From an uncultured virus (IMG/VR IMGVR_UViG_3300035130_000143) (Duplodnaviria; Heunggongvirae; Uroviricota; Caudoviricetes): 64,000 nucleotides of DNA. Within the stretch, counting starts at the first letter, position 1; each line of letters opens with the position of its first letter. The translations under genes and the position numbers were made by a program. Under the pieces are notes generated by a model, which searched no databases, was not told where the DNA came from, and worked only from the letters and a program-made list of their open reading frames with translations. The stretch lies in the IMG/VR virus record IMGVR_UViG_3300035130_000143; one strand, given 5' to 3'. Positions 29,194 to 42,630 of the stretch are shown piece by piece.

Positions 29194-29397
29194 TCATTTT
29201 CTCTTTATTCGCATTTCCAGCGTATACTCCAGTGCATCAAGCCACGCCGCAAAATTCCGCATACTTGGCCACGACCGCCCTCGCTCCACGTCGGAAATGA
29301 ACGAGATAGATAGGCCACACTTTTCTGCTACCTGCCGCTGTTTTAACCCCTCGGCCTCGCGCAGTCGGCGCAGTAGCTTGCCTGGATGTTCAATCAT
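29194..29397 (-). CDS. XRE-family HTH regulator
   Basis: LRRLREAEGLKQRQVAEKCGLSISFISDVERG. Confidence 0.9.
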   Translation of the reverse strand: MIEHPGKLLRRLREAEGLKQRQVAEKCGLSISFISDVERGRSWPSMRNFAAWLDALEYTLEMRIKRK

Positions 29398-29693
29398 CGT
29401 AACTCCCGTCTGGTGTACTCGTAGACAAAATCATCCTGCCAGTGCCAGCGCCCGTCTTCGTCGCATTCCTCGACCACCCGCGCTCCTTCTGGCGACAGTG
29501 ACCAACAGCGAAACTCTCCAGGGTGCATTTCGCAGGTGCATAGCCCGTGGCGGCTCAGGCGATATAGCCTTTTGCGTGTGTCGACCTGACGATTGCTGCG
29601 TATTTCCCAGGCTATCTGCTCAAAATCGGGCGCATGGTCGTACATGGCGAATAGTATTTCTATGTCGGTTGAGTCTAGTTTTATCATTGCCAT
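29394..29693 (-). CDS. winged-helix protein
   Basis: LDSTDIEIL...RKRLYRLSRHGL...WSLSPEG. Confidence 0.6.
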   Translation of the reverse strand: MAMIKLDSTDIEILFAMYDHAPDFEQIAWEIRSNRQVDTRKRLYRLSRHGLCTCEMHPGEFRCWSLSPEGARVVEECDEDGRWHWQDDFVYEYTRRELR

Positions 29694-29784
29694 TTCACCT
29701 CATCACAATTCCACCTGCGTCGAAAGCGCCAGGACAGAATGTACGCCACAAACCTGGTAACGGCTGCCGCTTGGCGCAAGAGGG

Positions 29785-30018
29785 TCATTGCTCACTCCTC
29801 AAATACAGCCTGACGGCGCGGATGTGGTCACAGTCGCCGTTAAGCGACTCGCTACATTCTGGCCTATTTCCTGCCTTGCGCCAACACCGCCATCTCTGAC
29901 GAGAGTTGGTAAACACTGTATAAAACCTACGCCTTTCCAGGTCGGCTACATCAAAATAATGTGGCAGGATGTTACCGCGCATATCCAGTGCGGGCTGTAC
30001 TAGCTGACGTTTTGTCAT
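29785..30018 (-). CDS. SWIM-like zinc-finger protein
   Basis: C...CDHIRAVRLYL. Confidence 0.55.
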   Translation of the reverse strand: MTKRQLVQPALDMRGNILPHYFDVADLERRRFYTVFTNSRQRWRCWRKAGNRPECSESLNGDCDHIRAVRLYLRSEQ

Positions 30019-30373
30019 TTCTGCTCTCCCTTGTGTATCGCTTGCTCAGCGCGGTTCTCAAACTCCGGCTCTGACGCGGGCAGTTCTGTCGCCTGTTCAT
30101 AGGCGCTGTCTGCGCACCAGCCGTGCATCCAGGCGCGGCGCAGAGTCAATGGATTGGTACCGTAGACGTTGAACGGGCTTTCTGTATTCAGGCTGTCGTG
30201 ACAGATAGCGCATTTCATCGCACATACCCCATACACCCCCGCCCTCTAATGCCCCAGTTGGAGCAAACCCAAAACCAGCCCCACCAGTCGGACCGGGCGC
30301 GGATCATTGGCGCGCTGCAGAGTGGGCAGGTCATTTCACACGCTCCCCGCAAAACGGGCAGATGGATATTTAC

Positions 30374-30715
30374 TCATTTCTCCTGCTCCAAATACAACCT
30401 GACGGCTTTGATGTGGTCGCAGTTGTTGCGATTCTCTATTGAGCAGTTGCAACACCAGTCGTCAAAAAAACGCCAAACGTGAAAATTTCCGCCATCACCG
30501 TGAGGGACAACGTAATATTGATCATAATAGCGTGATGTCAGCACCGCCATTGCCTGTATTTTATCCACCGGCTGGCGCTCCATCAGTTCCATGATAGCGT
30601 CAGCGGCCTCGTCTACTCCATATAACGAAATCTCAACCTGGTCCAGGCCGCAGGTTTCGCTATCGGCCAACCACCAAACAAGATCGTTGAGGATTTGCTT
30701 GATTTCGTCTTTCAT
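30374..30715 (-). CDS. SWIM-like zinc-finger protein
   Basis: CCNC.....NNCDHIKAVRLYL. Confidence 0.6.
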   Translation of the reverse strand: MKDEIKQILNDLVWWLADSETCGLDQVEISLYGVDEAADAIMELMERQPVDKIQAMAVLTSRYYDQYYVVPHGDGGNFHVWRFFDDWCCNCSIENRNNCDHIKAVRLYLEQEK

Positions 30716-31034
30716 TTCTCCACCTCTGGCACTGGCGGCAGTTTCCACCAGCGCACGACAGCGGACGTAGTGCGCACGCCGTCCGGTGTGTATACCCACC
30801 ACTCGCCAGAGTAGGGATTATAGTATCCTGCGCGTCGCCAATTGTCGCCTACCTCTACGATGATGTCATCCACATCAGCGGGGGGCGTCTCTGCCGGGAA
30901 ACCCTCTACCAATTCTCTCACCCGCTCTGGAACCTCGCCAGGCAGGCAATCGAGCAATTTGGCAGTCTGGTCAATGGCTGGCGCAAAATCAGCGCCTATG
31001 CTGCGCAGACTCGTCGGTTCTGGTCTCTTTCTTG

Positions 31035-31991
31035 TCATTTCTTCACCTCTGGCATTTCGCGCCATTCGCGCCCGTCGAGCAAATGTCCGGCACGCTTTTT
31101 TCCAACCCTAAAACAAATGGTTCCGTCTTCAAATACGTGTTCTGGCGTGCTTGGTTTTAATGTATCATTGGACTGATCCGCACCTTGCCATTCCCCATTC
31201 TGCTTATGGAAATAACTCATCCCTGCCGCCTGGCACTGGTCACGCAACGAACGAAACCAATCAGGGTGTGTCGGGCGTGCGCCTGGACCAGTCTCGCCGC
31301 CGACAATTGTCCAGTCTAGGGGTTGTTCGCCGGGATAGACCGGTCCGCTTTCCGACCACCAATCATAGCTGCTTGCGCCTATGTACTCTTGCAAGCTGAT
31401 TGGCCCTAGTAGCGGCTCGCAACTCACAAACCGCACTGCCGCCGGCGTTTGCAAAAGTAGCGGTATGCGCTCGTCGGCGGTCTGTTGGTTCTCAGCCGTG
31501 ACGCCAAGCCAGACGTTGGGAAGCGGCCAGATTACATCACCGTAATTCATTGGTCTGCCACACGTTCCAGATAGCCTAAAAAACAGCCCACGCATAGACT
31601 CCCAGACCTTGCGCCGTCTGAAATTGGTTGTCAAAAAATCTAATACACGATGCGGTCTTTTGGTCAAGACTTGAAATGTGTGTTGACCGCCCATCAGCAT
31701 AACGCCAAAGACCATGTTCAGAAAATCGTCATCAACGTTTCTATGAAACAAATCACCCATCGAGCACACAAACACCATGCGCGGCTTGCGCCACTTCAAC
31801 GGTTCGACTAGCCGATCATGACGCAACGTCACCTTGAAATTGTCCGGTGTGGGTGGGTAGCCATAGCGCCCGGCCAAACGTCTACTCATGCGCTCTGCGT
31901 AGCAGTTGCGGCAACCTGATGAAATTTTGGTGCAGCCGTGAACGGGATTCCACGTCTCGTCCGTCAACTCAATTTTAGTTCTTGCCATCAT
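31035..31991 (-). CDS. DUF5131 (phage Gp37/Gp68) radical-SAM-like protein
   Basis: TWNPVHGCTKISSGCRNCYA, FVCSMGDLFH, LTKRP, RFVSCEPLL, IVGGETG. Confidence 0.9.
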   Translation of the reverse strand: MMARTKIELTDETWNPVHGCTKISSGCRNCYAERMSRRLAGRYGYPPTPDNFKVTLRHDRLVEPLKWRKPRMVFVCSMGDLFHRNVDDDFLNMVFGVMLMGGQHTFQVLTKRPHRVLDFLTTNFRRRKVWESMRGLFFRLSGTCGRPMNYGDVIWPLPNVWLGVTAENQQTADERIPLLLQTPAAVRFVSCEPLLGPISLQEYIGASSYDWWSESGPVYPGEQPLDWTIVGGETGPGARPTHPDWFRSLRDQCQAAGMSYFHKQNGEWQGADQSNDTLKPSTPEHVFEDGTICFRVGKKRAGHLLDGREWREMPEVKK

Positions 31992-32926
31992 TCTTTCCTC
32001 TTGGGTCTTTCTTGTGCCGCGTCTTGTTCCATATTTCCCAATTCTCAAAAAAGCGCTGCTCGCGCTTACTCAATTTATCCCACGCGCTCGGCTCTGGCTC
32101 TGGCGGCGCGTTGAGCTTGTCGTGCGCCGCCCGACACCTGGCGCACATAACATCGCCCGGTTCTCCGTCACGAACCACCCACACCGCGCCGTCCTTGAGT
32201 TGTACGCCCTCGCAGGGATAGCGGTCCCCTGGAGAACACAGCGCCCGCGCCTTGTCCATACTGTTGTCCACCACGGGAATGTGGACAATCGGTGGGCGCT
32301 TCCACGAATCAGGGCCGGAGCGGGCAAGGACTTTCATTGCTCTAGTGCAACTGGACGCAGTTTTCAGGAACGAATATCAAATCTTGCTGCGCCACGACCA
32401 CCAGACTGCGCTTGAAAAAAACCTCATGGGCTTCAAGGTCGTTCTTGGCCTGACGACCACGCCAGACGCAGGGCAGAAACGGGCCGCCGCGATAGATGAC
32501 GGTTCGGCGCGCTTTGATCTCAGAGCGCAACTCATCTCTATCCATTGACTGGCCTGCCGATAACCAGAACCTTCCTCGCGGGCGTTTCTTCCCCTGACAT
32601 GAAATCGATTCTACGCTCTATGGTTTCTGGGAACACATGTTTCACAGGAACCAGTTTGCAGACAAGAGAAATGTCGTCAAATTCTTCTATTGTTACGATA
32701 ATCTCACCGCCGTGCTCGGTTCTCAGTACTGTCAGTTGTTCTATAAGAGTATCCAAAGTCATTTTGTGGTGCTCCTTCGTAACCCTGGTTGCGTAGCCAT
32801 TCGGCCACGCTATGCTTGCGCAGTTCGGCGTCAGTTAAATCGTTGAATCTTTCGGCCACGCGCAGACGAATAGCACGCCTGGTCTTGGTGGAGTAGCGCA
32901 CGCCGTTGATGAGACCAACAGCGGCC

Positions 32927-33364
32927 CTAACCATCCTGTCCAGGCAGTAATCCCGCCAGCGCCTTGCAAATCGCCAGCGATAGGCTTGCGTCCAATGCAG
33001 TGCTAATTTGCCGACCGTCATGCCACAGCCCAGCAAACCAATTACCATGAGGGCGATTTAGATCGGGTGTCAATCCACGCTCGTCACACACCCGCTCAAG
33101 CGCAGCGACTGCCAGGTTACAGTCGCTTGAGTAGAACGGTACGACTTCCAGACAACTAATGAGATGTCCCAATACTCGCGCCTCGCCTTCGAGCGGGTCA
33201 TCGCAAAAGCAATTATTTAAATAGACTGGCTGCATGGCGTTTCCACTGCCATCGCAGGCAACCACCTGGTATCCAGCGTCAGGCATAATGTAGCATTGAG
33301 CCTCGCCCAGTATTTCCAGGCCAAGCAACTGGGCGATTTTTACGTCAAGCTCGCGTTTATTCAT
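32927..33364 (-). CDS. phage ABA-sandwich-like protein
   Basis: ELDVKIAQLLG...VPFYSSD...LAICKAL. Confidence 0.6.
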   Translation of the reverse strand: MNKRELDVKIAQLLGLEILGEAQCYIMPDAGYQVVACDGSGNAMQPVYLNNCFCDDPLEGEARVLGHLISCLEVVPFYSSDCNLAVAALERVCDERGLTPDLNRPHGNWFAGLWHDGRQISTALDASLSLAICKALAGLLPGQDG

Positions 33365-33759
33365 TGTTGCACCCTCTCCACGAGCTCCACCCAGTCCACG
33401 GCTAGCGTACCGGGCGGGGCGGGCATGATGTCGAGCGGCGCAAGCCCCAGCCAGTCCATTGCCCAGAACCGGCGCACTAGATCGGGGTCGCCGTGGGTGT
33501 TCATGAGCAGCCTGTCAACCGGGCAGGGGGCGCCTGCACGACAAGTCCATATCTCGCGGCGATCACTGCCGTAATACTCCAAGAACGCCTGGGCGCTCTC
33601 TAGTGTATCAAAGACCAGCAAGGGGCCATTGGGGCTGCTGGCGCGCTCGCCCTGCCTGTAAATCACCACCAGGTCACTGTCGCCCACGACGCACGACCGC
33701 ATGACGGGTGTAAGCCCGTCCATCGTCACCACTTTGTAGTAATAATGAGGCTCGCTCAT
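33361..33759 (-). CDS. hypothetical protein, tandem paralog
   Basis: shares YYKVV, SSP.GPL, WTCRAG and AP.GTL..DWVELVERV with the upstream gene. Confidence 0.65.
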   Translation of the reverse strand: MSEPHYYYKVVTMDGLTPVMRSCVVGDSDLVVIYRQGERASSPNGPLLVFDTLESAQAFLEYYGSDRREIWTCRAGAPCPVDRLLMNTHGDPDLVRRFWAMDWLGLAPLDIMPAPPGTLAVDWVELVERVQQ

Positions 33760-34151
33760 CGTTCTACCCTCTCTACCAACTCTACCCAATCAGCCAGGAG
33801 CGTACCCGCCGGAGCGACCGTGATAAGGTTGGCATTAAACCACTCGCCACGCCAAAACTGAGCTACCTGCTCTAGTTCGAAGAGCCAAAACGAAATAAAA
33901 ATAATTCGTTTGGTAGGGCGGACGCCGCCAGCGCGGCATGTCCATAGCTCTGCGTCGTATTCAGACATAGCCGCGTCAGCCTGGGCATGTTCTAACGAAT
34001 CGTAAATGAACAGTGGCCCATGGGGACTCGATGCTCTCTTGCCGCATTGATATTTTACGCGAATGCGTGAATCGCGCACGTAAATTGAATATTTTTCGTT
34101 GCCAGCATTGGGTTCGCTTGATACTATTTTATAATAGAGCTTGTGTGTCAT
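33756..34151 (-). CDS. hypothetical protein, tandem paralog
   Basis: paralog of 33361-33759. Confidence 0.65.
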   Translation of the reverse strand: MTHKLYYKIVSSEPNAGNEKYSIYVRDSRIRVKYQCGKRASSPHGPLFIYDSLEHAQADAAMSEYDAELWTCRAGGVRPTKRIIFISFWLFELEQVAQFWRGEWFNANLITVAPAGTLLADWVELVERVER

Positions 34152-34408
34152 TCTCTTGCTCCCACAAATATGGCTTCCATATGCCCAAAAGTCCATTACA
34201 ATACGAGACCATCTTATAGCCCACCAGGTCCATAACGCGCTGTGCCGTCGCGCGTGGCGGGCAGTCTTGCTCTCGAATGTAAGCCAGGGTATAGCCCTCG
34301 CCATCTGGCAATTCAAATACAGCGGCGGGGTTAAATAGAGCACAGGTATAAAATTCTTGTGCTCTTTCTATTGTAGGTTGAGCGCCGCTAAACCATTTTA
34401 TATGTGTG

Positions 34409-34576
34409 TTAAGCGTCATTCTCTTGCTCCATTCCCAGGTCCAGCGCCAGCATTATCACGGCTTGCACGATGAACTTGGAGCGATTGAAACCCAGGCGGC
34501 GAGCATAGCGCAATGCTCGCCAAAAGTCGCGGCGCATTGACGGCTGAACGCTAATACGGAATCTATCGTTTTTCAT
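34409..34576 (-). CDS. small RHH-like protein (55 aa, not in the ORF track)
   Basis: RFRISVQ...ARRLGFNRSKFIVQAV. Confidence 0.5.
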   Translation of the reverse strand: MKNDRFRISVQPSMRRDFWRALRYARRLGFNRSKFIVQAVIMLALDLGMEQENDA

Positions 34577-34985
34577 TCAAGTTGCCTCTAGTGTGCATCA
34601 AAATCACACCCAGCCAGTTTTTGCCCTCAATGTTTTTGCATTTTGGGCAATCGCAATTTCCCCACTCATTATCATGCCAGGCATTGCCCTCAGTGATTGG
34701 CTCGCTCCCGGTCAAGAGTAATAACTGGCGCAGCCAGGGAATCTCAAACTTCTTCTGCACCAGATCATACATTACTAGATACTTGATTTGCTCCCAGTCT
34801 GGACGCAACGTACACTTTCTACCTAGCTTTTTCGCCAGTGCTGGCGTAGCTGCTGCAAGGATGGCTTGACGCTCTATTGGGTCAAGTGTTTTCGCTGCCT
34901 GGAATTTGTGCTCCACCGTCAATTGTCCATCGTGATGATAGAAATTCGAAAATGGCAGATATTTACCTTGAAACCTATCAATCAT
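34563..34985 (-). CDS. NADAR (YbiA/DUF1768) family hydrolase
   Basis: FSNFY, TVEHKFQAAKT, AKKLGR..LRPDWE, L..TG....EGN.WHD..WG, GKNWLG..LM. Confidence 0.9.
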   Translation of the reverse strand: MIDRFQGKYLPFSNFYHHDGQLTVEHKFQAAKTLDPIERQAILAAATPALAKKLGRKCTLRPDWEQIKYLVMYDLVQKKFEIPWLRQLLLLTGSEPITEGNAWHDNEWGNCDCPKCKNIEGKNWLGVILMHTRGNLNEKR

Positions 34986-35062
34986 TTTTCACCTCTACTC
35001 TATCATAGCACAATATGGGAAAAAACACAATACTTCACAACCTTAAAATTTCCCAAAACCTA

Positions 35063-35091
35063 TTGACGCCGTTGTCAATCCATGATAGAAT
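35063..35091 (+). promoter_or_regulatory. sigma70 promoter TTGACG-17-TAGAAT heading the ncRNA block
   Basis: near-consensus, at the strand-divergence point. Confidence 0.75.
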
Positions 35092-36441
35092 GTATCTGCT
35101 CAACCGGGGCGCGGCAGACACCATAGCGTGCAACGCGAGACGCCCCGGTTGAGTGAAGGGGTCAACTCGGCGGTAACAGGTGTGTGACGAGGTAAATGAG
35201 GCCGAGAGTCAATGACGGCACACCGGCCCCTGGGGCGCGGCAAAGGGTTTGTTCAGGTTTCCCTGACAGGCTAACGCCAAAACTGTCGAGCTAATATGCC
35301 AGCCCGCGCCCCAACTTTAACAACTGGTTCGTCAATCGCTCGAATCGCGGCGTGCTCATGGATTATCCCGACTTGGAGCGCAGGGGTTGCGGCGCTCTGT
35401 CCTGTCACATGGAAAAGGGGTTTAGCAACGGCCTTCCCCAAGGCGATGGTTGCTTTCGCGGCGACTTAGTAGTCGCCAAAGGTGACAGCGCGGCGCGATT
35501 CGAGCGGCGGATGAGCCACAAGGACTGACGCGCGAGATGTAGGGGTTGAATCCGGGATTACAATTCTGTACTAGGTACAGATTTGCCGTAGGTGAAAAAG
35601 GGATGCCAGTGGGGTGAACCTGGCCCGCATCAGTCCTTTAATAATCTGATTCGCTCGAATCGCATCGCCGGTGGAGCGTCTGCTATTGTTGACTGCCTGG
35701 GGCCACGTTCGCTTTAGGAGATAGCAGAAAAACCTAAACAAGTGCAAGCTACACTTGCTAAAGTCGAAGCCATAGCACACATTGACGAGCGCACAAGCGC
35801 CAGCAACAGAGATGGATAGACAATAGCGGCGATGTGATTCGAGCGGCGGATGAGCCGTCTTTTGGCAGAGTTGGGAAGTGTTTGCTCACCAAGAGTTTGG
35901 AGAACGCCCGTGAGGTATAACGCATTGACCCGTCGGCGGATGTAAACACGCAGGTGGCGCGGCCAGGTTCATGCGGTTGCTAGAGTAAAACTAGCTCTAC
36001 CCTGTGACAGCCCGCAAGAAATTTCAAGGCAAAGCCGCAAGCTCAAAATGTCACCCGCGCCACACTTTAACAATTTGCTGCTCTGTTCGTGACTAGTCGT
36101 AGCCTGGAAATGCCCAGGCTTGACGGCAGAGCGGCAAAACACAGGGCGTGTAGCGCGCCAGTCTGCGAGTGACATAAATCTAGCAAGCGCGTTGACACAT
36201 GGTAAAGCCAGTCATTCTGGTGAAGCGCGTTCAAATCGCCAGCGCCCCACATCCCGCAGCGGTGAAAGTCCGTGGCCTATAGCTAAGGCCGTGGTGAATC
36301 TTAGTTAGGTGACGAGAGCGCGAAAGCGTGGGTAGCCCTAGCAAACGGACAGTCGGGGATGACAACCGAAAGCCGTGCTGGTTTCCGCAGCAAAACAGGA
36401 CGCCCCGCCGCCGGTCGGTCAAGAGAAATAACCGGCAACAT

Positions 36442-36512
36442 AGCGCGGTAGAGTAACGGCTACTCGGCGGTCTCATAAGCCGCACAAGCGGGTTCGAGCC
36501 CCGCCCGCGCAA
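36442..36512 (+). tRNA. tRNA-Met(CAT), initiator-like; CCA not encoded
   Basis: cloverleaf: AGCGCGG/CCGCGCA, D-stem GAGT/ACTC, anticodon loop CTCATAA, T-loop TTCGAGC. Confidence 0.85.
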
Positions 36513-36854
36513 CTATACCCAACAGCCCAGTCGTTCGTACCGTGGGTGTCGGGAGCGGCGGTATCCTGGGCCACTGCTCAAATTGTCTACTAGAGCCTTT
36601 GAAACGAAATGCCAGGACGGGAGACAAGGGCATCAGCAAAGCGGGGAGCGTTCTAGTTAAGCTCCCAACGGTTGTACCTGGCGCTCGACTGGCTACAGTG
36701 GCATGTGACCAGCCGCGCCAGTTTTTAACAACGCCTCATTAGTAATAGCTTTGATGAGGCAAAATCGGAGCGCCGCGTCTGCCCAATACAGACGCGGCGT
36801 AAACAATAGAGCGCCGCGCCAGTTATGGCAACAGGCGCGGCGCTGAAGTTATCG

Positions 36855-36928
36855 CTATCCCCGCTCCCGTACTCCACGTAATGGATTTCGGAAATGTTGC
36901 AAAAGAGACGGGAGCGGGGTGGTTTTTT
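36855..36928 (+). terminator. long hairpin + T run ending the ncRNA block
   Basis: CCCCGCTCCCGT ... ACGGGAGCGGGG then GTTTTTT. Confidence 0.6.
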
Positions 36929-37041
36929 GGGAGATGAAATGGACCTGCGATATTGGACAAAAAAGGTATTAGAAAAATGCGATCCGACGAGTGAACCGGT
37001 CTAGGAAGACAAGGAGCATGCCTGGGACAAGGGGAAGCGAC

Positions 37042-37377
37042 ATGGATAGACTTGACGAGATTCGCGCAAGACACGAACGCGTCATGGAGTGGTCGAACAG
37101 ACGCCAGCGCGGAGTATCAACTGCGCGTGAGGACATCGGTTATCTTCTGGGGCTTCTGGTAGAGCATCCCGCGAGCGAGCCGCCTGGGGACAATCGGGTG
37201 GTCATAGTGCGCGTGAGTGGTAAGCGCATGGCCGGGCTGTATCAGCGCGGGCAGTGGTTTGTGTACCAGCGTGTTGGCTTTGCTCCCAGGGGAGATGTGG
37301 AAAGTTGGCAAGAACTTCCCCCGGTTGAGGGCGTGTGTACTCCGAGGGCACAAAGGGGTTATGATGGCAAAGACTAA
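37042..37377 (+). CDS. hypothetical protein with a DUF551-like C-terminus
   Basis: PASEPP...V.SWQELPP; paralog at 30712-31038. Confidence 0.55.
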   Translation: MDRLDEIRARHERVMEWSNRRQRGVSTAREDIGYLLGLLVEHPASEPPGDNRVVIVRVSGKRMAGLYQRGQWFVYQRVGFAPRGDVESWQELPPVEGVCTPRAQRGYDGKD

Positions 37378-37612
37378 AAAAGAGCGGGTGCGGGCGCTGA
37401 TCCTGGCGCGGCGTGGGCAGAATGTCAAAGCGCGTACCATCGAGGATGATTACGTTATTGCTTACGACGACGATGTTTCTCGGTCCACGGTGGCGAGCGT
37501 GTTCCAGGAACTGTGCCAGGCTGGGCTTGCCTGGTGGGGATGGGGCGGCGGGCGTAATGCGTGTTGGCTTGTGTGTAGTTGTGATTTGTTTACGAGGTCG
37601 GAAGATGAATGA
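37361..37612 (+). CDS. winged-helix-like protein, paralog of 3977-4222
   Basis: TKKERVR...VSRSTV....EL...GWGGGRN. Confidence 0.65.
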   Translation: MMAKTKKERVRALILARRGQNVKARTIEDDYVIAYDDDVSRSTVASVFQELCQAGLAWWGWGGGRNACWLVCSCDLFTRSEDE

Positions 37613-37724
37613 ATGGACGCCGAAAGGCCGACGCGCTATTGAAGTGCTCTCACGGTGTAAGTTTTTGCCTGGGAGCTATGACAAGCGGTTCGTGCGCGCA
37701 ATGGACGAAAGGAGACTATGAGAG

Positions 37725-38243
37725 ATGGACTTGAACGATTGGGCGCAAAAGGCATTAGAGAAGTGCGATCCGGCAAGCAAGCCGGTTTCGCTATACTGGT
37801 TTGAGCATGTGAAATATGATTCGGATGTGGACTGGTGCTATGAGTGCGCCATTGCCCTCATGGAATATTTCAACGGCGAGACCGAGCGCCCCGAAACGGT
37901 CTGGGAAGACGAGGAGATTCCCGATTGGTCCCCTGGGCCTGATAGCGTTGCTCTTGCTGGCGGCTGGGCAATCGAATCGGACACCGCGAGATTTTGCGCT
38001 CGGTGCGGGCGCAGGCTGGAATTTTGCCCGACTGACTATTTTTGCAAGAGTGAGCTGGAATATTATGAGAATTACACCCCCAGGGGTGACTGGCGCAGTT
38101 TTCAGATATTCCTGGATGCAATGGATGAATACTGCGCCTCAGGACGGGACTGGTATTCGCGGGCATTGAGGCTTGCCGAGAAATACCTGGGGACCGAAAC
38201 TATTGACCGGTGGGGACGGCGCACAGTTGAGGTAAAAGGCTAG
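37725..38243 (+). CDS. hypothetical protein
   Basis: 172-aa ORF. Confidence 0.65.
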   Translation: MDLNDWAQKALEKCDPASKPVSLYWFEHVKYDSDVDWCYECAIALMEYFNGETERPETVWEDEEIPDWSPGPDSVALAGGWAIESDTARFCARCGRRLEFCPTDYFCKSELEYYENYTPRGDWRSFQIFLDAMDEYCASGRDWYSRALRLAEKYLGTETIDRWGRRTVEVKG

Positions 38244-38806
38244 TGAACCAACAGACTCCCCTCGTCATCACAGCCCAGACCATCCCTGCCGCCGAAGGAA
38301 TGAAAGTGCATTTTTCACAGAAGTCCAACGAATGGGCCACGCCTCAAGATGTGTTTGACAAACTGGATAGCATGTTTGGGCCATTCTCTTTGGACCCCTG
38401 CGCCACTCCCGAAAACGCAAAGTGCGAGCGGTTTTTCACGGCAAAAGAAGACGGGATAAAACAGGACTGGGGTACACACACTGTTTTTATGAATCCGCCA
38501 TACGGTAGGCAGATCGGGCGGTGGATTGCCAAAGCCTACCACGAAAGCTTGCAGGGCGCTATGGTGGTCTGCTTGATTCCAGCACGTACAGACACAGCAT
38601 ACTGGCATGATTACGTTATGCGCGCTGGCGAGGTTTATTTGCTACGCGGGCGCATAAAGTTCGTGGGGAGCAATAGTTCTGCGCCTTTTCCATCTTGCGT
38701 TGTGGTTTTTTATCCAAGAGATCATGACCAGTCACCTCTTTTTTTCTCGCTTGATTCACGTGCGGAGCGATGGGAAAGATACCACGAGGACGATATTCAT
38801 GAATAA
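38243..38806 (+). CDS. phage N6-adenine DNA methyltransferase (Dam-like)
   Basis: EWATPQ, LDPCAT, FMNPPYG, LIPARTDT..WH, GRIKF. Confidence 0.92.
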   Translation: MNQQTPLVITAQTIPAAEGMKVHFSQKSNEWATPQDVFDKLDSMFGPFSLDPCATPENAKCERFFTAKEDGIKQDWGTHTVFMNPPYGRQIGRWIAKAYHESLQGAMVVCLIPARTDTAYWHDYVMRAGEVYLLRGRIKFVGSNSSAPFPSCVVVFYPRDHDQSPLFFSLDSRAERWERYHEDDIHE

Positions 38807-38927
38807 CAATCAAGTCCCTTTAGTCGCGACGGCGCAAACCATTCCCGGATTTGTGGCATGCGATCTGAGCGCGCCGGGTTTATCCGGTCCCTGGAAAAGC
38901 GGACGTTTGAGCAGAGGACATGGTGGA

Positions 38928-39476
38928 ATGACGAAAATGCTGATGCTTGACTTAGGTGCTGGATTAGGTGGCGCGTCTGAGGCAATGCGCCGACGCGGGT
39001 GGAATGTCGTAACGGTGGACATCAACCCGGAGTTTAACCCCGACATCGTGGCTGACTTACGCACGTGGTCCTGGGACGGCCCGCGCCCAGACCTGGTGTG
39101 GGCCAGCCCGCCCTGTGATGAATTTGCCAAGTTCGCCATGCGTTGCTGGTATGACGTGGATGCACTGGCTACCCCTGATGTGTCGCTGGTGTTGGCCTGT
39201 AAGCGTGTCATAGATGAGTGTCACCCGCGATTCTGGATTATCGAGAACGTGCGGGGAGCCATACAATTTCTTGAACCGATATTGGGCACGCCGCGCAAGT
39301 TTCGCCCCTATTATTTGTGGGGACACTTCCCATGCTTGGGTGATGTGAAAAGGCACACATGGGGCACAAAAACAAAAAAACTATCCTCTACCGCAAAGGC
39401 CGAACGCGCTGAGATACCATACTCGTTGAGCAAGGCTGTGGCCCTGGCGATAGAGCGACAGGGTGAATTGTTGTGA
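38928..39476 (+). CDS. compact C5-cytosine methyltransferase-like protein
   Basis: LDLGAGLGG, WASPPC, IIENVRG. Confidence 0.8.
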   Translation: MTKMLMLDLGAGLGGASEAMRRRGWNVVTVDINPEFNPDIVADLRTWSWDGPRPDLVWASPPCDEFAKFAMRCWYDVDALATPDVSLVLACKRVIDECHPRFWIIENVRGAIQFLEPILGTPRKFRPYYLWGHFPCLGDVKRHTWGTKTKKLSSTAKAERAEIPYSLSKAVALAIERQGELL

Positions 39477-39606
39477 CTGATAGGCCAACCATAGCCACAT
39501 TTTGTTCAGTGGCGTGGGTAAAGGGGACCGGGGCGCGCTTATTGCCTGAACGCGCCCCGGTTGAGGAGAAATACTACAAAAAGCTGATGGTTGAGGATAT
39601 TTTATC

Positions 39607-40308
39607 ATGAACGGTGTGGAAATGTCAAGAGTTATTTACGGCGACGCCCGCGAGATAGACCTGGCGCAGTTTGACCGCTACCAAACGATAGCGGCAGACC
39701 CGCCGTGGTTTTACAACGATCAGCGCAAAGTGCGCAAGGATGGCGCTACCCCCACGGCAGGTATAGGCGCGTGTCATCACTATGACCAAATGACCGTTGA
39801 AGAAATCTGCGCCATGCCCGTTGCCCAATTGGCCGCATCCCGCTGTCATCTCTACCTCTGGGCAACCGCTCCACTCTTACCCGACGCCTTGCAGGTCATG
39901 AACGCCTGGGGCTTTGAATACGCGACTGTTGCCTTTGCCTGGGTAAAGATGAACCCTGGCGCGTGGGGCGAGGCGCAGATCAGGATAAATCAACTAGATA
40001 TGTTTGGAACGCCGGACGAGCAGGTCGCGGCGTTCATGGATAACCTGGCTTTTTTCGGTCCTGGTTTTTACACCGGCTCAAACGTAGAACTTGTGCTGCT
40101 CGGACGGCGCGGTAAACCGTTCGCCCACGCCAAGGGCCGGAAAGCCGCGCAGGCCATCTTTGCTCCACGAGGAGAACACAGCGCCAAGCCTGAGCGGGTG
40201 CAAGACTTGATAGAATGGATGTACCCTGGCGCCGCGCCGCGTCTTGAGCTTTTCGCAAGGCGAGCGCGAGTAGGATGGGATGTATTTGGCAATGAAATAC
40301 AAGATTGA
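39607..40308 (+). CDS. MT-A70 family adenine methyltransferase
   Basis: ADPPW, LYLWAT, AWGFEY...WVK, EHSAKP, LELFARR..GWDVFGNE. Confidence 0.92.
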   Translation: MNGVEMSRVIYGDAREIDLAQFDRYQTIAADPPWFYNDQRKVRKDGATPTAGIGACHHYDQMTVEEICAMPVAQLAASRCHLYLWATAPLLPDALQVMNAWGFEYATVAFAWVKMNPGAWGEAQIRINQLDMFGTPDEQVAAFMDNLAFFGPGFYTGSNVELVLLGRRGKPFAHAKGRKAAQAIFAPRGEHSAKPERVQDLIEWMYPGAAPRLELFARRARVGWDVFGNEIQD

Positions 40309-40347
40309 CGCGCCGGTTGTAAAATCGGCGCTAGAGCCACGAGAGCT

Positions 40348-41175
40348 GTGGCAAAGGCGGCTGTGGTGAGTAAATCAGTAGCGCAATACATTGTAGACGG
40401 ATTAAAATTGGAATTAAACCCAAAACTAGAGCAGCACACTGAAACTGATCTTGATACCGTATGCGCTATAACCGGTGAGCGCATTACTCAAGGCATTTTC
40501 TGGAAACATGTAATTCCTTCCTCAACAGGAGAATATTTGGGCCTCATGAGCGGTATGGCGTTCCCGTACCTGGGTATCCCCGCTGCCATGGCGTTCAAAG
40601 GCAGTTGGAACATGGGAAGCCGTCTGATTTTTGAGGACGGAACCATGTATCATCCGTACATTTCTACTGCAAGCGCAGAGAAAAGCGAACGTACCTGTTG
40701 GCGCGACCTGGTGCGCGACGTGTGGCCTGCGCGCCAGGGGCAATCGTGTCTCTGCATCATCACCGATGACTACAAAAAGAAAATTTGGCCGATGGCGCGG
40801 ACTGGAGAATTGGGTATGAATACACCAGTTCTTTTGTTAGATTCAGACAGGCTGCCGCCATCAAAAAACATAGCCTCACCCAGGCGCCTGGTTAGCCGTC
40901 TGGCATTACATAGATTGACAATTAACTGGGAAAAATTGATAGCGGTTCTCGATTTTGTCGAAACTGTTCGCGCTGCTGGCTTCGGTAGACAGGCTATCTC
41001 GGAAAGCCTGTTTACGTTCTACGCGGCGCTGATGGAGAATCAATCAACTGTGTCGAGCTGGGAAGCTCGATTGGTCGAACTGCGCGAGACGCCAGAGTTT
41101 GCCGTGGCGCTATTGATTGCGCAAAAAGATGTCGCTGAACAAGGCAAACGAGAAAAGCAACTTAGTTTTTTATAA
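40348..41175 (+). CDS. csf1: type IV CRISPR large subunit Csf1 (Cas8-like), putative
   Basis: position upstream of csf2, size, CAITG motif, KKKIWP motif. Confidence 0.65.
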   Translation: MAKAAVVSKSVAQYIVDGLKLELNPKLEQHTETDLDTVCAITGERITQGIFWKHVIPSSTGEYLGLMSGMAFPYLGIPAAMAFKGSWNMGSRLIFEDGTMYHPYISTASAEKSERTCWRDLVRDVWPARQGQSCLCIITDDYKKKIWPMARTGELGMNTPVLLLDSDRLPPSKNIASPRRLVSRLALHRLTINWEKLIAVLDFVETVRAAGFGRQAISESLFTFYAALMENQSTVSSWEARLVELRETPEFAVALLIAQKDVAEQGKREKQLSFL

Positions 41176-41186
41176 GGAGAATAAAA

Positions 41187-42629
41187 ATGCAAGCGAAACA
41201 TTTTCAATTGGCGCTGACGGCTAAAGAGGCCATCAGTCACCACGACCCAACGACGGGAAACGACAGTAATATTCTGACGTTCAACCGTCAATTACAGTTC
41301 GTCAAGCGCGACCCAACCGACACGCCGGTTTTTAGCCATCTGGTCGAGGCGCTTTGTGAGCAGAATCCTATGCCCGCGAGCGTGGGCGCGCTGACGAGTC
41401 GTCTGAATTTGCCGGAATGGTTGAGTGCGGCTTACATTCGTCTCTTGTTAGACATCCACAATAAAGCTGACACCGACACTGACGAAAGTCGAGAGAAAAA
41501 GACAAAGAAAAAAGATGGGCAAGGGCTGTTGTCGGGCATGCAGCGGTATCGCATGCTCGAAAACCGCCTGCAAACGTCAGCGGTAAAATGCTCAACACTA
41601 CACGGTTTGTGGTCTGTACTGACACATGATTTGTTGTTGGAAATGCATGACAGCAAACACGACGAGGCCATAGCCGCGTTCTGGACGCTTCCCCCCAGCG
41701 TCCAGTATTCTATGCTCACGACGATGAGCAAGCAACACCGCGCAGTTTCAACTCTGGCGCGTGTCTGGCACGCGGCAAACAAATGCCAGAGCGCAGAGTA
41801 TTGCGCGGCTGCAAAGATTCCTTATGCGCCCCAGGAGATGGCAGCGCGCTCGTTCACCGACGAGGATTTTCCAGAGCCGCCAGACGAGATAGTACTAGAT
41901 GTGCCCGCGATTAGCGTCAACAGTCTACGTCATCAACTGGTGCGCGAGCCGTCCTGGTTGCACCTGTGTTCATTGTTGGGGATTGAACCTCAGGCTAGAG
42001 GCGAGGGACCGTTGCCCGTGGGGGCCGACGCGATTTTTGCCAATGGCGGAAACATTGAAAAAGGCGCGAGCCAGCCAAGCAACACATTTTATCTGGCTGG
42101 CGAGATTCGCAAAGCCTACCCATCACTGGACTTGTTGGGCGGTACAACCTCGTCGTTTGACCTGGGCGAAAGTAAGCTGGAACTTTCGGCCTGGATTGTC
42201 TGCAAGGAAAATGCGGACAATCTGCCCGCCGCGCTACAGAATACGGCGCAGGCCCAAACCAGCGTGTTTGAAATGCTAGACGAGGTAACGCGCACGCGCC
42301 ACGCCACAGCAGACGGACAGGGCCAGATGATTTACAACTACGAGACCCTGGTAGCAGGTACGCAGGTCTTTGTCGAGTTGGCGCTAACGCCATACACCAC
42401 GGCGCTGACCGAGGGTGCGCTGGCGGCGGCGCTGGATTACTATGAGCGGAATGACAATGTGATAGGCGGCCAGTCCGCTCGCGGGCATGGGCACGTGAGC
42501 GTTGAATGGCTGACGGACAAGCCGCAGGGCATGGCTGACTATGAGCAGTTTGTCACAGAGCGCAAGGATGAATTGTACAACGGCCTCGTGAACAAGACGC
42601 TGTGCTCTGGCGCGCAGGTGATTAAATAG
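41187..42629 (+). CDS. csf2: type IV Cas7 (Csf2) with a large helical insertion resembling Cas11
   Basis: LTAKEAISHH, VPAISVNSLRHQL, FANGG, YPSLDLLGG, TRTR, QMIYNYETLVAGT, IGGQSARGHG. Confidence 0.88.
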   Translation: MQAKHFQLALTAKEAISHHDPTTGNDSNILTFNRQLQFVKRDPTDTPVFSHLVEALCEQNPMPASVGALTSRLNLPEWLSAAYIRLLLDIHNKADTDTDESREKKTKKKDGQGLLSGMQRYRMLENRLQTSAVKCSTLHGLWSVLTHDLLLEMHDSKHDEAIAAFWTLPPSVQYSMLTTMSKQHRAVSTLARVWHAANKCQSAEYCAAAKIPYAPQEMAARSFTDEDFPEPPDEIVLDVPAISVNSLRHQLVREPSWLHLCSLLGIEPQARGEGPLPVGADAIFANGGNIEKGASQPSNTFYLAGEIRKAYPSLDLLGGTTSSFDLGESKLELSAWIVCKENADNLPAALQNTAQAQTSVFEMLDEVTRTRHATADGQGQMIYNYETLVAGTQVFVELALTPYTTALTEGALAAALDYYERNDNVIGGQSARGHGHVSVEWLTDKPQGMADYEQFVTERKDELYNGLVNKTLCSGAQVIK

Positions 42630-42630
42630 C

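What the first reader, a model, noticed from the sequence alone, without database searches (positions are those of the whole stretch)
35099..36930. ~1.9-kb promoter-driven polycistron of unknown structured RNAs
Seen: in an otherwise gene-dense genome, a block with its own promoter and terminator, no credible CDS, and successive closed domains: CTCAACCGGGGCG/CGCCCCGGTTGAG (35099-35153), GGGGCGCGG/CCGCGCCCC (~35232-35312), two long-stem units, GTGGCGCGG/CCGCGCCAC (~35955-36063), TTTGCTGCTCTGT/GCAGAGCGGCAAA (~36073-36138), a GNRA-rich domain (~36250-36440), tRNA-Met, CCAGTCG/CGACTGG (~36527-36692) and twin GAGCGCCGCG hairpins. Known: large phage ncRNAs such as GOLLD and ROOL occur beside tRNAs, but I cannot match this block to a family. 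Inference: new ncRNA classes, candidate partners or substrates of the nearby Csf/CysH/SpoU proteins.
Basis: partly seen in the sequence, partly recalled or inferred. Interest (0 to 1): 0.8.

Follow-up and report, generated by a model that had tools for sequence, protein, structure and literature searches.

The report
Phage noncoding RNA operon around tRNA-Met
An uncultured wetland phage carries a 1.85-kb gene-free stretch with its own strong promoter and terminator that most likely yields one initiator-like tRNA and several hairpin RNAs of no known family; it is a real but still unproven candidate, and nothing ties it to the CRISPR-like genes nearby.

Summary
Between a strong sigma-70 promoter (35063-35091) and a hairpin plus T-run terminator (36859-36928) lie about 1.84 kb with no credible ORF. 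Rfam finds one family there, tRNA-Met (36442-36513).

New points:
- The motif YTTTAAYAA occurs 4 times in the 64-kb window. All four lie in this block on the + strand, each just after a GC-rich closing stem.
- Three of those stems use the tRNA's own acceptor pairs, GCGCGG/CCGCGC.
- Two paralogous long-stem units share an invariant 12-bp stalk.
- Related wetland contigs carry the same modules in other orders. They keep the promoter boxes and the transcribed leader while the promoter spacer differs.

Limits:
- Only about half the modules fold better than shuffled sequence.
- A 120-nt sliding scan does not separate the block from coding DNA.
- No homologue could be fetched, so covariation is untested.
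- No RNA data were available.

Best reading: a phage stable-RNA operon, cut by host tRNA and rRNA processing enzymes into a tRNA and several small RNAs of unknown role.

The proposed link to the nearby array-less type IV-B Csf/CysH/SpoU genes is unsupported. A phage with a 63%-identical cassette has no such block, no tRNA and no copy of the motif.

The parts
35040..35091 (+). Promoter. A/T-rich UP-like element ACCTTAAAATTT (35040-35051), -35 TTGACG (35063-35068), TG-extended -10 TAGAAT (35086-35091).
   Evidence: One search gives 10 of 12 matches with TG. In relatives X2 and X3 the -35 box and the AACCTTAAA(A)TT element are kept and the -10 becomes TATACT, while 12 of 25 spacer positions (35069-35093) differ.
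35099..35153 (+). H1: 5'-terminal leader hairpin with 13-bp perfect arms.
   Evidence: I8. One search gives z -3.8. One search gives mean pair probability 0.99. Related contigs of all 3 laid runs carry it directly after a promoter, and both X2 substitutions in it give G.U pairs.
35154..35230 (+). M2: weakly structured spacer.
   Evidence: One search gives z -0.8. X2 shows 3 substitutions: 1 at a paired position, which keeps its pair, and 2 at unpaired positions.
35231..35323 (+). D2: 83-nt domain closed by the 10-bp clamp TGGGGCGCGG/CCGCGCCCCA, followed by trailer ACTTTAACAA (35314-35323).
   Evidence: I22, D16. One search gives z -2.5. One search gives clamp mean P 0.85. One search covers the motif. 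In X2 the trailer reads ACCTTAACAA and homology ends after it.
35325..35518 (+). LS-A: 194-nt long-stem unit, a stalk of about 27 bp enclosing a branched interior of about 130 nt.
   Evidence: I1. One search gives z -5.8; the + strand folds 16.9 kcal/mol better than the - strand, with 10 G.U among 72 pairs. One search gives stalk P 0.92-1.00.
35520..35644 (+). M5: 119-nt domain closed by AAGGACTGACGCG/CGCATCAGTCCTT, ending in the degenerate trailer CTTTAATAA (35636-35644).
   Evidence: I11. One search gives clamp mean P 0.86. One search gives z -1.2, not significant. One search covers the motif.
35645..35856 (+). LS-B: second long-stem unit, paralogous to LS-A in its arms only. It shares TCGCTCGAATCGC and the 21-mer GATTCGAGCGGCGGATGAGCC.
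   Evidence: I2, D1, D5. One search gives z -5.3; the 21-mer occurs twice in the window, 0 expected; of 16 stalk pairs, 12 are identical, 2 changed on one side and 2 changed on both sides.
35857..35953 (+). M7: unstructured spacer. It contains a third CGGCGGATG, at 35934.
   Evidence: One search gives z +1.0. GGCGGATG occurs 3 times in the block against once in the rest of the window.
35954..36073 (+). D6: 110-nt domain with clamp GTGGCGCGG/CCGCGCCAC and trailer ACTTTAACAA (36064-36073). It is paralogous to D2 at both ends.
   Evidence: (D2, D16). Weak points: z -1.5, and clamp probability 0.00 in the full-length fold. The real tRNA acceptor stem also scores 0.00 in that fold.
36074..36138 (+). 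H9: long hairpin.
   Evidence: One search gives z -5.8; the + strand is 9.4 kcal/mol better. One search gives P 0.96. X2 keeps it joined to a D6-type 3' end (record 7).
36139..36440 (+). M10 plus the 'GNRA-rich' region directly upstream of the tRNA.
   Evidence: z -0.8 and +0.3. No Rfam match at E <= 10. In X3 a 61-nt inner piece (36278-36338) is replaced by 92 other nt while both flanks are kept, with 0 and 3 differences.
36442..36513 (+). tRNA-Met (CAU) with an A1.A72 mismatch and an A11-U24 pair, so initiator-like.
   Evidence: RF00005 scores 48.6 bits against gathering 29. The mismatch is marked in the alignment. Reading these features as initiator hallmarks is recalled knowledge.
36514..36678 (+). 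M13: spacer or module conserved in X2 and X3.
   Evidence: One search gives z +0.1. X2 substitutions break 5 of 6 MFE pairs. A small alternative hairpin at 36585-36597 gains a C-G to U-A double change (read by hand).
36679..36731 (+). H14: hairpin CTGGCGC...GCGCCAG followed by trailer TTTTAACAA (36723-36731).
   Evidence: (D2, D7). Probability is 0.00 in the full-length fold.
36733..36845 (+). H15 (36733-36760) and the twin GAGCGCCGCG hairpins H16 (about 36768-36801) and H17 (36809-36845).
   Evidence: One search gives z -7.3. One search gives P 0.91-0.99. (D18, I7, I19). In one X3 contig H17 is followed by another copy of the same promoter type.
36857..36930 (+). Intrinsic terminator: branched hairpin with a 12-bp GC-rich base, then TTTTTT.
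   Evidence: I13; z -4.0; P 0.99. Related contigs of X1, X2 and X3 keep it, and in X1 and X3 it is followed at once by SD plus ATG of different genes.

Best explanation
The block is a phage stable-RNA operon.

Mostly shown: a strong sigma-70 promoter with an UP-like element starts a transcript of about 1.84 kb that ends, at least partly, at the hairpin-plus-U-run terminator at 36859-36928. The transcript carries no protein gene. It carries one initiator-like tRNA-Met and about ten closed RNA modules.

Inferred: the precursor is cut into separate stable RNAs by the host enzymes that mature tRNA and rRNA operons.
- RNase P would cut at the 5' ends of the tRNA and of the tRNA-acceptor-like clamps D2 and D6. 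Those clamps share the GCGCGG/CCGCGC pairs of the tRNA's own acceptor stem.
- RNase E or RNase Z would cut in the single-stranded AU-rich trailers YUUUAAYAA that follow four closing stems.
- RNase III would cut in the long stalks of LS-A and LS-B, as it does in rRNA processing stalks.

The tRNA would serve phage translation. What the other RNAs do is unknown; my guess is decoys or modulators used early in infection. Transcription that escapes the terminator probably also feeds the downstream early genes.
For: Noncoding:
- (longest ORF 93 aa, negative codon scores throughout, no PHROG hit).

One transcription unit:
- The only consensus + strand promoter upstream of the tRNA is at 35063.
- The promoter boxes, UP-like element and terminator are kept in related contigs from 3 runs.

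Constraint on the RNA rather than on the DNA in general:
- In X2, positions 35095-35314 differ at 6 of 220 sites. The promoter spacer 35069-35093 differs at 12 of 25.
- 4 of 4 substitutions at paired positions of H1, M2 and D2 keep the pair, all as + strand G.U.

Strand:
- Summed module MFE is -697 on the + strand against -672 kcal/mol on the - strand. LS-A is 16.9 and H9 is 9.4 kcal/mol better on +.

Repeated processing-type architecture:
- YTTTAAYAA occurs 4 times in 128 kb of both strands, all within this 1.84 kb on the + strand, where about 0.03 would be expected.
- Each copy lies just 3' of a closing stem, and the 3' ends of D2, D6, M5, H14 and the tRNA align.

Stable elements:
- z is -3.8 to -7.3 for H1, LS-A, LS-B, H9, the twin hairpins and the terminator.
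- Their pair probabilities are 0.85-1.00 in the full-length fold.

Paralogous stalks:
- Of 16 stalk pairs, 12 are invariant and 2 carry compensatory changes.

Background:
- The listed abstract of PMC5291269 says RNase E generates the mature 3' termini of E. coli proline tRNAs. A wider role for RNase E in AU-rich trailers behind tRNAs is recalled.
- tRNA-like t-elements serve as RNase P and tRNase Z processing signals (PMC4326828, passages read; PMC1920247, listing only).
Against: - No RNA data of any kind.
- No homologue could be fetched, so there is no covariation test. The comparative evidence is a handful of substitutions from one or two relatives that share the same promoter allele.
- Seven of the fourteen segments tested fold no better than shuffles.
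- The 120-nt sliding z-scan does not separate the block from coding DNA, p = 0.48.
- For module M13, X2 substitutions break 5 of 6 predicted pairs.
- The D6 and H14 clamps have probability 0.00 in the full-length fold, though the true tRNA acceptor stem does too.
- D2 and D6 have no T-arm or cloverleaf. Relaxed ARAGORN finds no further tRNA-like gene.
- The RNase assignments are inference only, and the host is unknown.
Confidence: 0.55

Rival explanations
1. The block is a long structured 5' leader of the rightward early operon. It would act in cis, and its hairpins and terminator would set how much transcription reaches the genes from 37042 onward by attenuation or antitermination. The tRNA would be a passenger.
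For: - No promoter-like site lies between the terminator and the first downstream gene.
- In X1 and X3 relatives the terminator's T-run is followed at once by SD plus ATG of the next gene, so those genes need read-through.
- H1 always sits directly after the promoter in relatives.
- The 9-mer CGGGAGCGG in M13 (36550-36558) repeats the terminator's 3' strand and could compete for its 5' strand (I3).
Against: - 1.8 kb is far longer than any known leader (recalled).
- The modules are shuffled among relatives, which does not fit one integrated switch.
- In X2 the M13 module is followed directly by a gene with no terminator.
- The I3 pairing has probability 0.00.
- This reading is compatible with, and not exclusive of, the operon reading.
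Confidence: 0.15
2. The block is a fast-changing 'tRNA island'. It would hold leftovers of decayed or recombined tRNA genes and DNA-level palindromic or mobile elements that pile up where no gene is disrupted. Only the tRNA and a few terminator-like hairpins would be functional.
For: - Module order differs between relatives, with pieces replaced or deleted.
- The LS units look like inverted repeats around unrelated cargo.
- Two 10-mers of the tRNA recur in the block (35165, 35790). tRNA 8-mers are shared 10 times against a shuffle mean of 2.7, p about 0.02, and against at most 9 in 30 control segments.
- Half of the segments are not structured beyond chance.
- An earlier finding of this scan, e1-5358757, reached this verdict for another phage (not checked by me).
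Against: - The LS arms occur nowhere else in the 64-kb window.
- They were not found in 3 collections: viral contigs, GenBank phages and plasmids. That is unlike a mobile repeat.
- The clamps are perfect 9-10-bp helices, longer than a tRNA acceptor stem, which is not decay.
- G.U-dependent + strand stability and wobble-only substitutions point to selection on RNA.
- The four-fold trailer motif is block-specific.
Confidence: 0.2
3. The block supplies the cognate RNAs of the phage's array-less type IV-B Csf complex (40348-44527). The tRNA-like clamps would replace Cas6, and the YUUUAAYAA trailer would serve as the 5' handle read by Csf3.
For: - It lies on the same strand, 3.4 kb upstream of a Cas6-less, array-less IV-B cassette that also holds a SpoU RNA methyltransferase.
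- The RNA that Csf3 recognises is stated to be unknown (PMC7937560, passages read).
- Cas6-independent crRNA maturation from t-element flanks works when engineered in Haloferax (PMC4326828).
Against: - Phage G001, with a 63%-identical Csf2 and a homologous Csf3, has no block, no tRNA, no ORF-free gap and 0 copies of the motif.
- The segments between the clamps are mostly long duplexes, which are poor Cas7 substrates.
- No regular repeat-spacer order exists.
- The block has no match in GenBank phages or plasmids that could mark a target.
Confidence: 0.05
4. The block hides small protein genes.
For: Sixteen ORFs of 45-93 aa can be drawn in it.
Against: - The codon score is negative in 11 of 11 windows.
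- 0 of 16 ORFs hit PHROGs.
- X2 carries four separate 1-nt insertions within 36632-36642.
- The longest ORF is antisense to the tRNA.
Confidence: 0.02

Closest known systems
Phage T4 tRNA gene cluster with its two small stable RNAs (bands C and D). Recalled knowledge; not seen in any call.
   Same: - One promoter-driven polycistronic noncoding transcript in a phage.
- tRNA plus non-tRNA stable RNAs of unknown function.
- Maturation attributed to host tRNA-processing enzymes.
   Different: - Here there is only one tRNA and about ten non-tRNA modules over 1.8 kb.
- The modules carry repeated acceptor-like clamps, a shared trailer motif and two long-stalk paralogues.
- There is no sequence or Rfam relation to T4.
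- Processing is not shown here.
GOLLD and ROOL large ornate RNAs of phages, often beside tRNAs (association recalled).
   Same: Phage-borne, next to a tRNA, large noncoding region, function unknown.
   Different: - No Rfam family other than tRNA matched, even at E <= 10. I did not separately confirm that GOLLD and ROOL models are in the library.
- The block is a string of separate, shuffled modules rather than one conserved multi-domain fold.
t-elements: tRNA-like processing signals in plant mitochondria and Haloferax (PMC1920247, listing only; PMC4326828, passages read).
   Same: Acceptor-stem-like helices inside longer transcripts that could direct RNase P and RNase Z cuts and so define the ends of neighbouring RNAs.
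   Different: - D2 and D6 have 9-10-bp clamps but no T-arm or cloverleaf.
- They are bacterial-type and phage-borne.
- Cleavage is untested.
rRNA operon processing stalks and phage T7 RNase III sites (recalled).
   Same: Long duplexes formed by sequences flanking an RNA, with conserved stalk sequence. They are candidate RNase III substrates that release the enclosed RNA.
   Different: - The enclosed RNAs are 130-156 nt and of unknown identity.
- No cleavage data exist.
Earlier finding e1-5391251 of this scan: phage noncoding RNA operon with a leader domain and an initiator-like tRNA (AI note, unchecked by me).
   Same: ORF-free promoter-to-terminator unit in an uncultured phage, with a conserved leader, an initiator-like tRNA and undescribed structured RNA.
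   Different: - It is in a different phage.
- No sequence relation was found.
- Our block is larger and has the repeated clamp-and-trailer architecture.

Membership tests
tRNA (Rfam RF00005) | Covariance-model score above gathering; cloverleaf with anticodon. | tested here: met
   36442-36512 scores 48.6 bits against gathering 29, and ARAGORN calls tRNA-Met (CAT). This holds for this module only.
tRNA-like elements (t-elements) for D2, D6, M5 and H14 | Acceptor stem stacked on a T-arm-like helix, recognisable as tRNA-like. | tested here: not met
   ARAGORN at -ps85 finds only the true tRNA. At -ps75 with introns it adds two calls with 461- and 797-nt 'introns', which are artefacts. Only the acceptor-like clamp and trailer resemble the tRNA.
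tRNA-like elements (t-elements) | Cleavage by RNase P and RNase Z. | not testable with these tools
   Needs in vitro cleavage or end mapping.
Known large or structured bacterial and phage ncRNAs in Rfam 15 (such as GOLLD, ROOL, OLE, HEARO, raiA, 6S, Y RNA, RNase P, tmRNA, group I/II introns, self-cleaving ribozymes; names recalled, and I did not check which of them the library holds) | Match to the family covariance model. | tested here: not met
   - At gathering threshold: 1 match in the 64-kb window, the tRNA.
- At E <= 10: 8 other matches in 34900-37100, at 12.6-18.6 bits against gathering scores of 40-100.
- 0 matches in 36235-36445.
- 4 matches far below gathering in 35320-35860.
CRISPR array | Regularly spaced direct repeats of 24-40 nt with unique spacers. 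| tested here: not met
   The four clamp-and-trailer copies are 322, 429 and 657 nt apart. TRF finds no array in the window.
Cognate RNA of a type IV-B Csf complex | Co-occurrence with IV-B genes in related elements. No sequence definition exists. | tested here: not met
   G001 has the cassette but no block, tRNA or motif. Only one relative could be examined.
Retron ncRNA (msr-msd) | Inverted repeats flanking the ncRNA, next to a reverse transcriptase gene. | tested here: not met
   Long inverted arms are present. No RT domain was found among 74 ORFs of the window scanned against Pfam (27, 47).
Sigma-70 promoter and intrinsic terminator (a transcription unit) | -35 and -10 hexamers at 16-18 nt spacing; GC-rich hairpin followed by a U-run. 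| tested here: met
   Promoter: 10 of 12 matches plus TG. Terminator: 12-bp stem plus TTTTTT, z -4.0, P 0.99. Activity itself was not tested.
Structured functional RNA (general) | Compensatory base changes across homologues. | tested here: inconclusive
   Only partial data from laid contigs were available.
- 4 of 4 paired-site changes in H1, M2 and D2 are wobble-compatible.
- 1 hand-read double change lies in a small hairpin at 36585-36597.
- 5 of 6 changes break the M13 MFE pairs.
- The paralogues LS-A and LS-B show 2 both-sided changes among 16 stalk pairs.

The most novel reading that the evidence does not exclude
The block could be the natural RNA source for the phage's array-less, Cas6-less type IV-B Csf complex. 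tRNA-acceptor-like clamps would recruit RNase P, RNase Z or RNase E to cut out RNAs that begin with a shared YUUUAAYAA-derived handle. Csf3, Csf2, the CysH-like enzyme and the embedded SpoU RNA methyltransferase would then bind or modify those RNAs. This would be a natural counterpart of the engineered t-element crRNA pathway (PMC4326828). It would also answer what RNA type IV-B systems use, which PMC7937560 states is unknown.
Probability: 0.04. Interest if true: 0.9.

Novelty: new variant of a known kind. Interest (0 to 1): 0.45.

Why it matters
Phage operons that make stable RNAs other than tRNAs have been known for decades and remain almost entirely unexplained. This locus offers a compact, testable case.
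- It has a strong promoter, one initiator-like tRNA, and a set of modules with a repeated clamp-plus-trailer signature. That signature predicts exactly where processing should occur.
- Relatives shuffle the modules, so natural variants exist for working out which pieces matter.
- If the RNAs prove stable and abundant, they would add several RNA families and possibly a new phage use of host tRNA-processing enzymes.
- If they do not, the locus is an ordinary fast-evolving tRNA island.
- It also lies beside an array-less type IV-B cassette whose RNA partner is an open question, though my one test of that link came out negative.

Tried and rejected
Searches for relatives of the block (all failed):
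- blastn against GenBank phages and plasmids: no match.
- Viral contigs, five DNA patterns:
  - LS 21-mer: 0 hits.
  - H1 17-mer: 3 chance hits with no extended similarity.
  - Clamp-and-trailer pattern: 120 or more single chance hits, none with extended similarity.
  - LS two-arm pattern: 4 chance hits.
- Metagenome contigs, H1 two-arm pattern: 9 chance hits. This spent the only scan.
- Protein anchors in viral contigs:
  - The NADAR gene found nothing.
  - ORF 37725 found only the withheld own contig.
  - The alignment of its 3 homologues found nothing.
- The 58-kb contig that encodes P0002 (78% identical) could not be fetched.
- Whole genome of the window: none is held.
- DNA search of three genomes reached through TnpB loci: nothing.

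Other attempts:
- Host: TnpB relatives are 33-47% identical and spread over Actinomycetota, Cyanobacteria, Parcubacteria and archaea, so the host is not resolved.
- Expression: no RNA holder was listed among 3 runs.
- Earlier notes of this scan: none at this place or by sequence.
- tRNA-fragment origin of the block: only marginal support. Shared 10-mers: 2 against a shuffle mean of 0.19, p 0.04, and 1 of 30 control segments also has 2.
- The global MFE of the whole block was not informative.
- The region 2000-7000 with strong AT skew turned out to be a run of small packed + strand ORFs, not a second noncoding block.
Full report
CONTEXT

The window is a contig from a wetland metagenome. It has the gene content of a tailed phage or a similar mobile element.
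- Pfam finds DUF5131, a DUF927 primase-helicase, a Gp3-like factor, a TnpB, and at least five DNA methyltransferases (Dam, MT-A70, two N6_N4 enzymes and a weak C5-type hit).
- No whole genome is held for it.
- Genes left of about 35000 run on the minus strand and genes right of about 37000 run on the plus strand. GC skew changes sign there.
- The finding sits exactly at this divergence point.

Yes, for the most part.

Promoter.
- A promoter-like site TTGACG-17-TAGAAT with an upstream TG lies at 35063-35091, 10 of 12 matches.
- It is the only + strand site of that quality between 34128 and 38000.
- Promoter-like sites as a class are not enriched in the region: 4 found against 2.9 expected.

Terminator.
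- A 12-bp GC-rich stem (36859-36870/36908-36919) closes a branched hairpin, z -4.0, and is followed by TTTTTT at 36923-36928.
- The scan tool did not list it because its loop limit is 8 nt.

No credible ORF between the two.
- The longest ORF is 93 aa and lies antisense to the tRNA.
- A codon log-likelihood score trained on 18 long ORFs of the window is negative in 11 of 11 windows starting at 35100-36600. It is positive in 10 of 12 windows upstream and 16 of 18 downstream.
- 0 of 16 block ORFs of 45-93 aa match PHROGs.

RNA families.
- ARAGORN and Rfam find one tRNA-Met at 36442-36513, 48.6 bits.
- No other Rfam family comes near its threshold even at E <= 10, whether the block is searched whole or in pieces.

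- The 7-nt CCAGTCG/CGACTGG closure has pair probability 0.00.
- The 'GNRA-rich domain' does not fold better than shuffles, z +0.3.

HOW MUCH STRUCTURE IS BEYOND CHANCE?

The answer is mixed, and I report both sides.

Clearly beyond chance:

| Element | z-score |
|---|---|
| H1 (35099-35153) | -3.8 |
| LS-A (35325-35518) | -5.8 |
| LS-B (35645-35856) | -5.3 |
| H9 (36074-36138) | -5.8 |
| Hairpins 36733-36845 | -7.3 |
| Terminator | -4.0 |
| D2 (borderline) | -2.5 |

Not beyond chance:

| Segment | z-score |
|---|---|
| 35154-35232 | -0.8 |
| 35519-35650 | -1.2 |
| 35846-35955 | +1.0 |
| 35950-36075 | -1.5 |
| 36140-36250 | -0.8 |
| 36240-36441 | +0.3 |
| 36514-36735 | +0.1 |

- A blind scan with 120-nt windows from 27000 to 45000 gave mean z -0.65 for 29 windows inside the block and -0.43 for 265 windows outside, Mann-Whitney p = 0.48. 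The block as a whole is therefore not thermodynamically exceptional at that scale. The signal lies in a few long-range or very stable helices.
- In a partition-function fold of the whole transcript (span up to 260 nt), H1, the D2 clamp, both LS stalks, the M5 clamp, H9, H15-H17 and the terminator have mean pair probabilities of 0.85-1.00.
- In the same fold the D6 clamp, H14 and the true tRNA acceptor stem all have 0.00. A zero in this fold therefore does not disprove a helix.

NEW ANATOMY

1. A block-specific trailer motif.
- YTTTAAYAA occurs 4 times on both strands of the 64-kb window (1.84 expected for the whole window). All four copies lie in this 1.84-kb block on the + strand, at 35315, 35636, 36065 and 36723. 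By proportion, about 0.03 would be expected in the block.
- Each copy follows the 3' strand of a closing stem. The extended 3' ends of D2, D6, M5 and H14 align with each other and, more loosely, with the 3' acceptor strand and trailer of the tRNA.
- D2 and D6 are closed by GGGGCGCGG/CCGCGCCCC and GTGGCGCGG/CCGCGCCAC. These contain the six acceptor pairs GCGCGG/CCGCGC of the tRNA-Met itself.
- They are not tRNAs. Relaxed ARAGORN finds nothing credible.

2. Two paralogous long-stem units.
- LS-A and LS-B share TCGCTCGAATCGC on the 5' side and the 21-mer GATTCGAGCGGCGGATGAGCC on the 3' side. The 21-mer occurs twice in the window, 0 expected.
- Their interiors of 130-156 nt are unrelated.
- In a two-sequence consensus fold, of 16 stalk pairs 12 are identical, 2 changed on one side and 2 changed on both sides.

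3. Strand.
- Summed module energies favour the + strand, -697 against -672 kcal/mol. LS-A is 16.9 and H9 is 9.4 kcal/mol better on the + strand because of G.U pairs.
- This argues for RNA-level rather than DNA-level hairpins.

4. The tRNA.
- It has an A1.A72 mismatch, marked in the alignment, and an A11-U24 pair.
- I recall both as hallmarks of bacterial initiator tRNA. Its anticodon stem has two rather than three G-C pairs next to the loop.

RELATIVES

Laying the contigs of three wetland runs on 34500-37500 gave the only comparative data. X1 may be the source sample.
- Related but different contigs share pieces of the block:
  - 35055-35314 (X2).
  - 35005-35119 (X3).
  - 35076-35153 (a second X1 contig).
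  - 35495-35521 joined through 104 other nt to 36055-36093 (X2).
  - 36240-36277 and 36339-36432, with the 61 nt between them replaced by 92 nt (X3).
  - 36411-36589 (X3).
  - 36540-36668 (X2).
  - The terminator region, in all three runs.
- The block is therefore modular and rearranged among relatives. The promoter with H1 and the terminator are the most widely kept parts.
- In X2 the 25 positions of the promoter spacer and -10 region (35069-35093) carry 12 differences. The next 220 transcribed positions carry 6.
- The -35 box is unchanged, the -10 becomes TATACT, and the upstream AACCTTAAA(A)TT element is kept in X2 and X3.
- X2 and X3 share the same promoter allele, so this counts as one event and not two.
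- Of the 6 transcribed differences, 4 fall on MFE-paired positions and all 4 keep a pair as G.U on the + strand.
- Against this, in M13 5 of 6 paired-position differences break the predicted pair. That predicted fold is not supported.
- By hand I read one double change (36587 C>T with 36595 G>A, plus 36586/36596) that would improve a small alternative hairpin at 36585-36597.
- X2 also has four separate 1-nt insertions at 36632-36642. That fits noncoding sequence.
- In X1 and X3 the terminator's T-run is followed at once by SD plus ATG of different genes.
- The X3 gene starts MNLSDWA, matching P0003, a 60%-identical homologue of window ORF 37725-38243.

I could not fetch any of these relatives. 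Every collection search failed or returned chance matches. A proper covariation test therefore remains undone.

THE TYPE IV-B NEIGHBOURS

- PADLOC and NCBIfam identify Csf2/Cas7 (41187-42629, E 8.5e-33, with an N-terminal extension of about 230 aa).
- They identify a CysH-like PAPS-reductase-family protein (42631-43377) and Csf3/Cas5 (43751-44527, E 1.8e-23).
- Pfam identifies a SpoU-type methyltransferase at 43378-43779, E 1.8e-7.
- No CRISPR array is seen in the window.
- PMC7937560 (passages) states that type IV-B complexes assembled on heterogeneous RNA and that the RNA Csf3 would recognise is unknown. A nearby RNA locus is therefore tempting.

The one test I could make was negative.
- The IMG/VR phage G001 (56 kb, terminal repeats, rated 100% complete) has Csf2 at 63% identity and homologous flanking cassette genes.
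- It has no DNA similarity to the block (best E 0.6) and no tRNA.
- It has no gap of 300 nt or more free of 80-aa ORFs and no copy of YTTTAAYAA.
- One relative is thin evidence, but it points away from an obligatory partnership.

WHAT IT MOST LIKELY IS

A tRNA gene needs a promoter, and the only good one upstream is 1.35 kb away. The intervening modules are therefore most simply co-transcribed with it, from a promoter whose UP-like element and strength recall stable-RNA promoters (that comparison is inference).

The recurring arrangement is a closed helix, an AU-rich single-stranded trailer, and then the next closed helix. That is the layout of multi-tRNA and rRNA precursors.
- The listed abstract of PMC5291269 says RNase E generates the mature 3' termini of E. 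coli proline tRNAs. That RNase E cuts AU-rich trailers behind tRNAs more generally is recalled.
- tRNA-like t-elements direct RNase P and tRNase Z (PMC4326828).
- Long stalks are RNase III substrates (recalled).

I therefore commit to a phage stable-RNA operon processed by host enzymes into a tRNA and several small RNAs. My confidence in the whole statement is 0.55, higher for 'noncoding transcription unit' and lower for the specific nucleases.

What the non-tRNA products do is not known. Decoys or modulators in early infection is a guess.

Rivals are:
- A cis-acting leader or attenuator for the early genes (0.15; not exclusive of the main reading).
- A fast-evolving tRNA island of remnants and palindromes (0.20).
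- Type IV-B partner RNAs (0.05).
- Hidden peptides (0.02).

NOVELTY

The kind is known: phage noncoding operons around tRNAs. T4 (recalled) and two earlier notes of this scan are examples.

The modules match no described family. I did not find the clamp-plus-trailer repeat or the LS stalk pair in GenBank phages, PLSDB plasmids, IMG/VR or, by one pattern, JGI metagenomes.

My paper searches were not designed to find this sequence, so I make no claim about print.

I rate it a new variant of a known kind and of moderate interest. It is held back by the lack of covariation and expression data.

Noticed in passing
window 40348-44527 (+): Array-less type IV-B cassette in a phage. It holds a 275-aa unassigned protein (possibly csf1), a Csf2 with an N-terminal extension of about 230 aa, a CysH-like gene, a 133-aa SpoU-type RNA methyltransferase wedged between cysH and csf3, and Csf3. 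The SpoU insertion is absent from the homologous cassette of G001/L004 by tblastx.
   Followed up: partly
L004 11410-11927: In the related phage G001 about 500 nt separate csf2 from the next cassette gene, with no ORF of 90 aa or more on the + strand. In the window those two genes abut. I did not examine what lies there.
   Followed up: no
window about 44340-44460: A 120-nt window at the end of csf3, before the methyltransferase at 44784, folds with z -6.2. That is the second strongest of the 300 windows scanned between 27000 and 45000. It may be a terminator or a regulatory hairpin.
   Followed up: no
window 36442-36513: The phage tRNA-Met has an A1.A72 mismatch and an A11-U24 pair (alignment). 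That makes it initiator-like by recalled criteria.
   Followed up: partly
window 36550-36558 and 36909-36917: CGGGAGCGG in module M13 repeats the 3' strand of the terminator stem. Arms 36541-36563/36856-36878 are 74% complementary (I3). This could be an alternative pairing against the terminator, but its probability is 0.00 in the thermodynamic fold.
   Followed up: partly
window 22799-24034 (-): A full-length TnpB (IS605 OrfB with a Cas12f-like TNB domain) sits inside the phage. Its relatives are 33-47% identical in Actinomycetota, Cyanobacteria, Parcubacteria and a Thorarchaeota MAG.
   Followed up: partly
window 38243-40308, 44784-45923, 50137-50913: At least five DNA methyltransferase genes (Dam-like, a weak C5-type hit, MT-A70, two N6_N4) plus a dCMP-deaminase-like gene at 48803-49474 and a BCS1/AAA ATPase at 46041-47264. 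This is a heavy investment in DNA modification.
   Followed up: no
window 1519-1911 (-): A 130-aa protein with a sigma-70 region 4 domain, E 6e-9. It may be a phage sigma or anti-sigma-like factor. It could bear on the conserved AACCTTAAAATT element upstream of the block's promoter.
   Followed up: no
window 2000-7100 (+): Strong A-over-T skew, up to +0.39. It coincides with a tight run of about 16 small + strand ORFs of 64-150 aa, so these look like typical small early genes and not a second noncoding block.
   Followed up: yes
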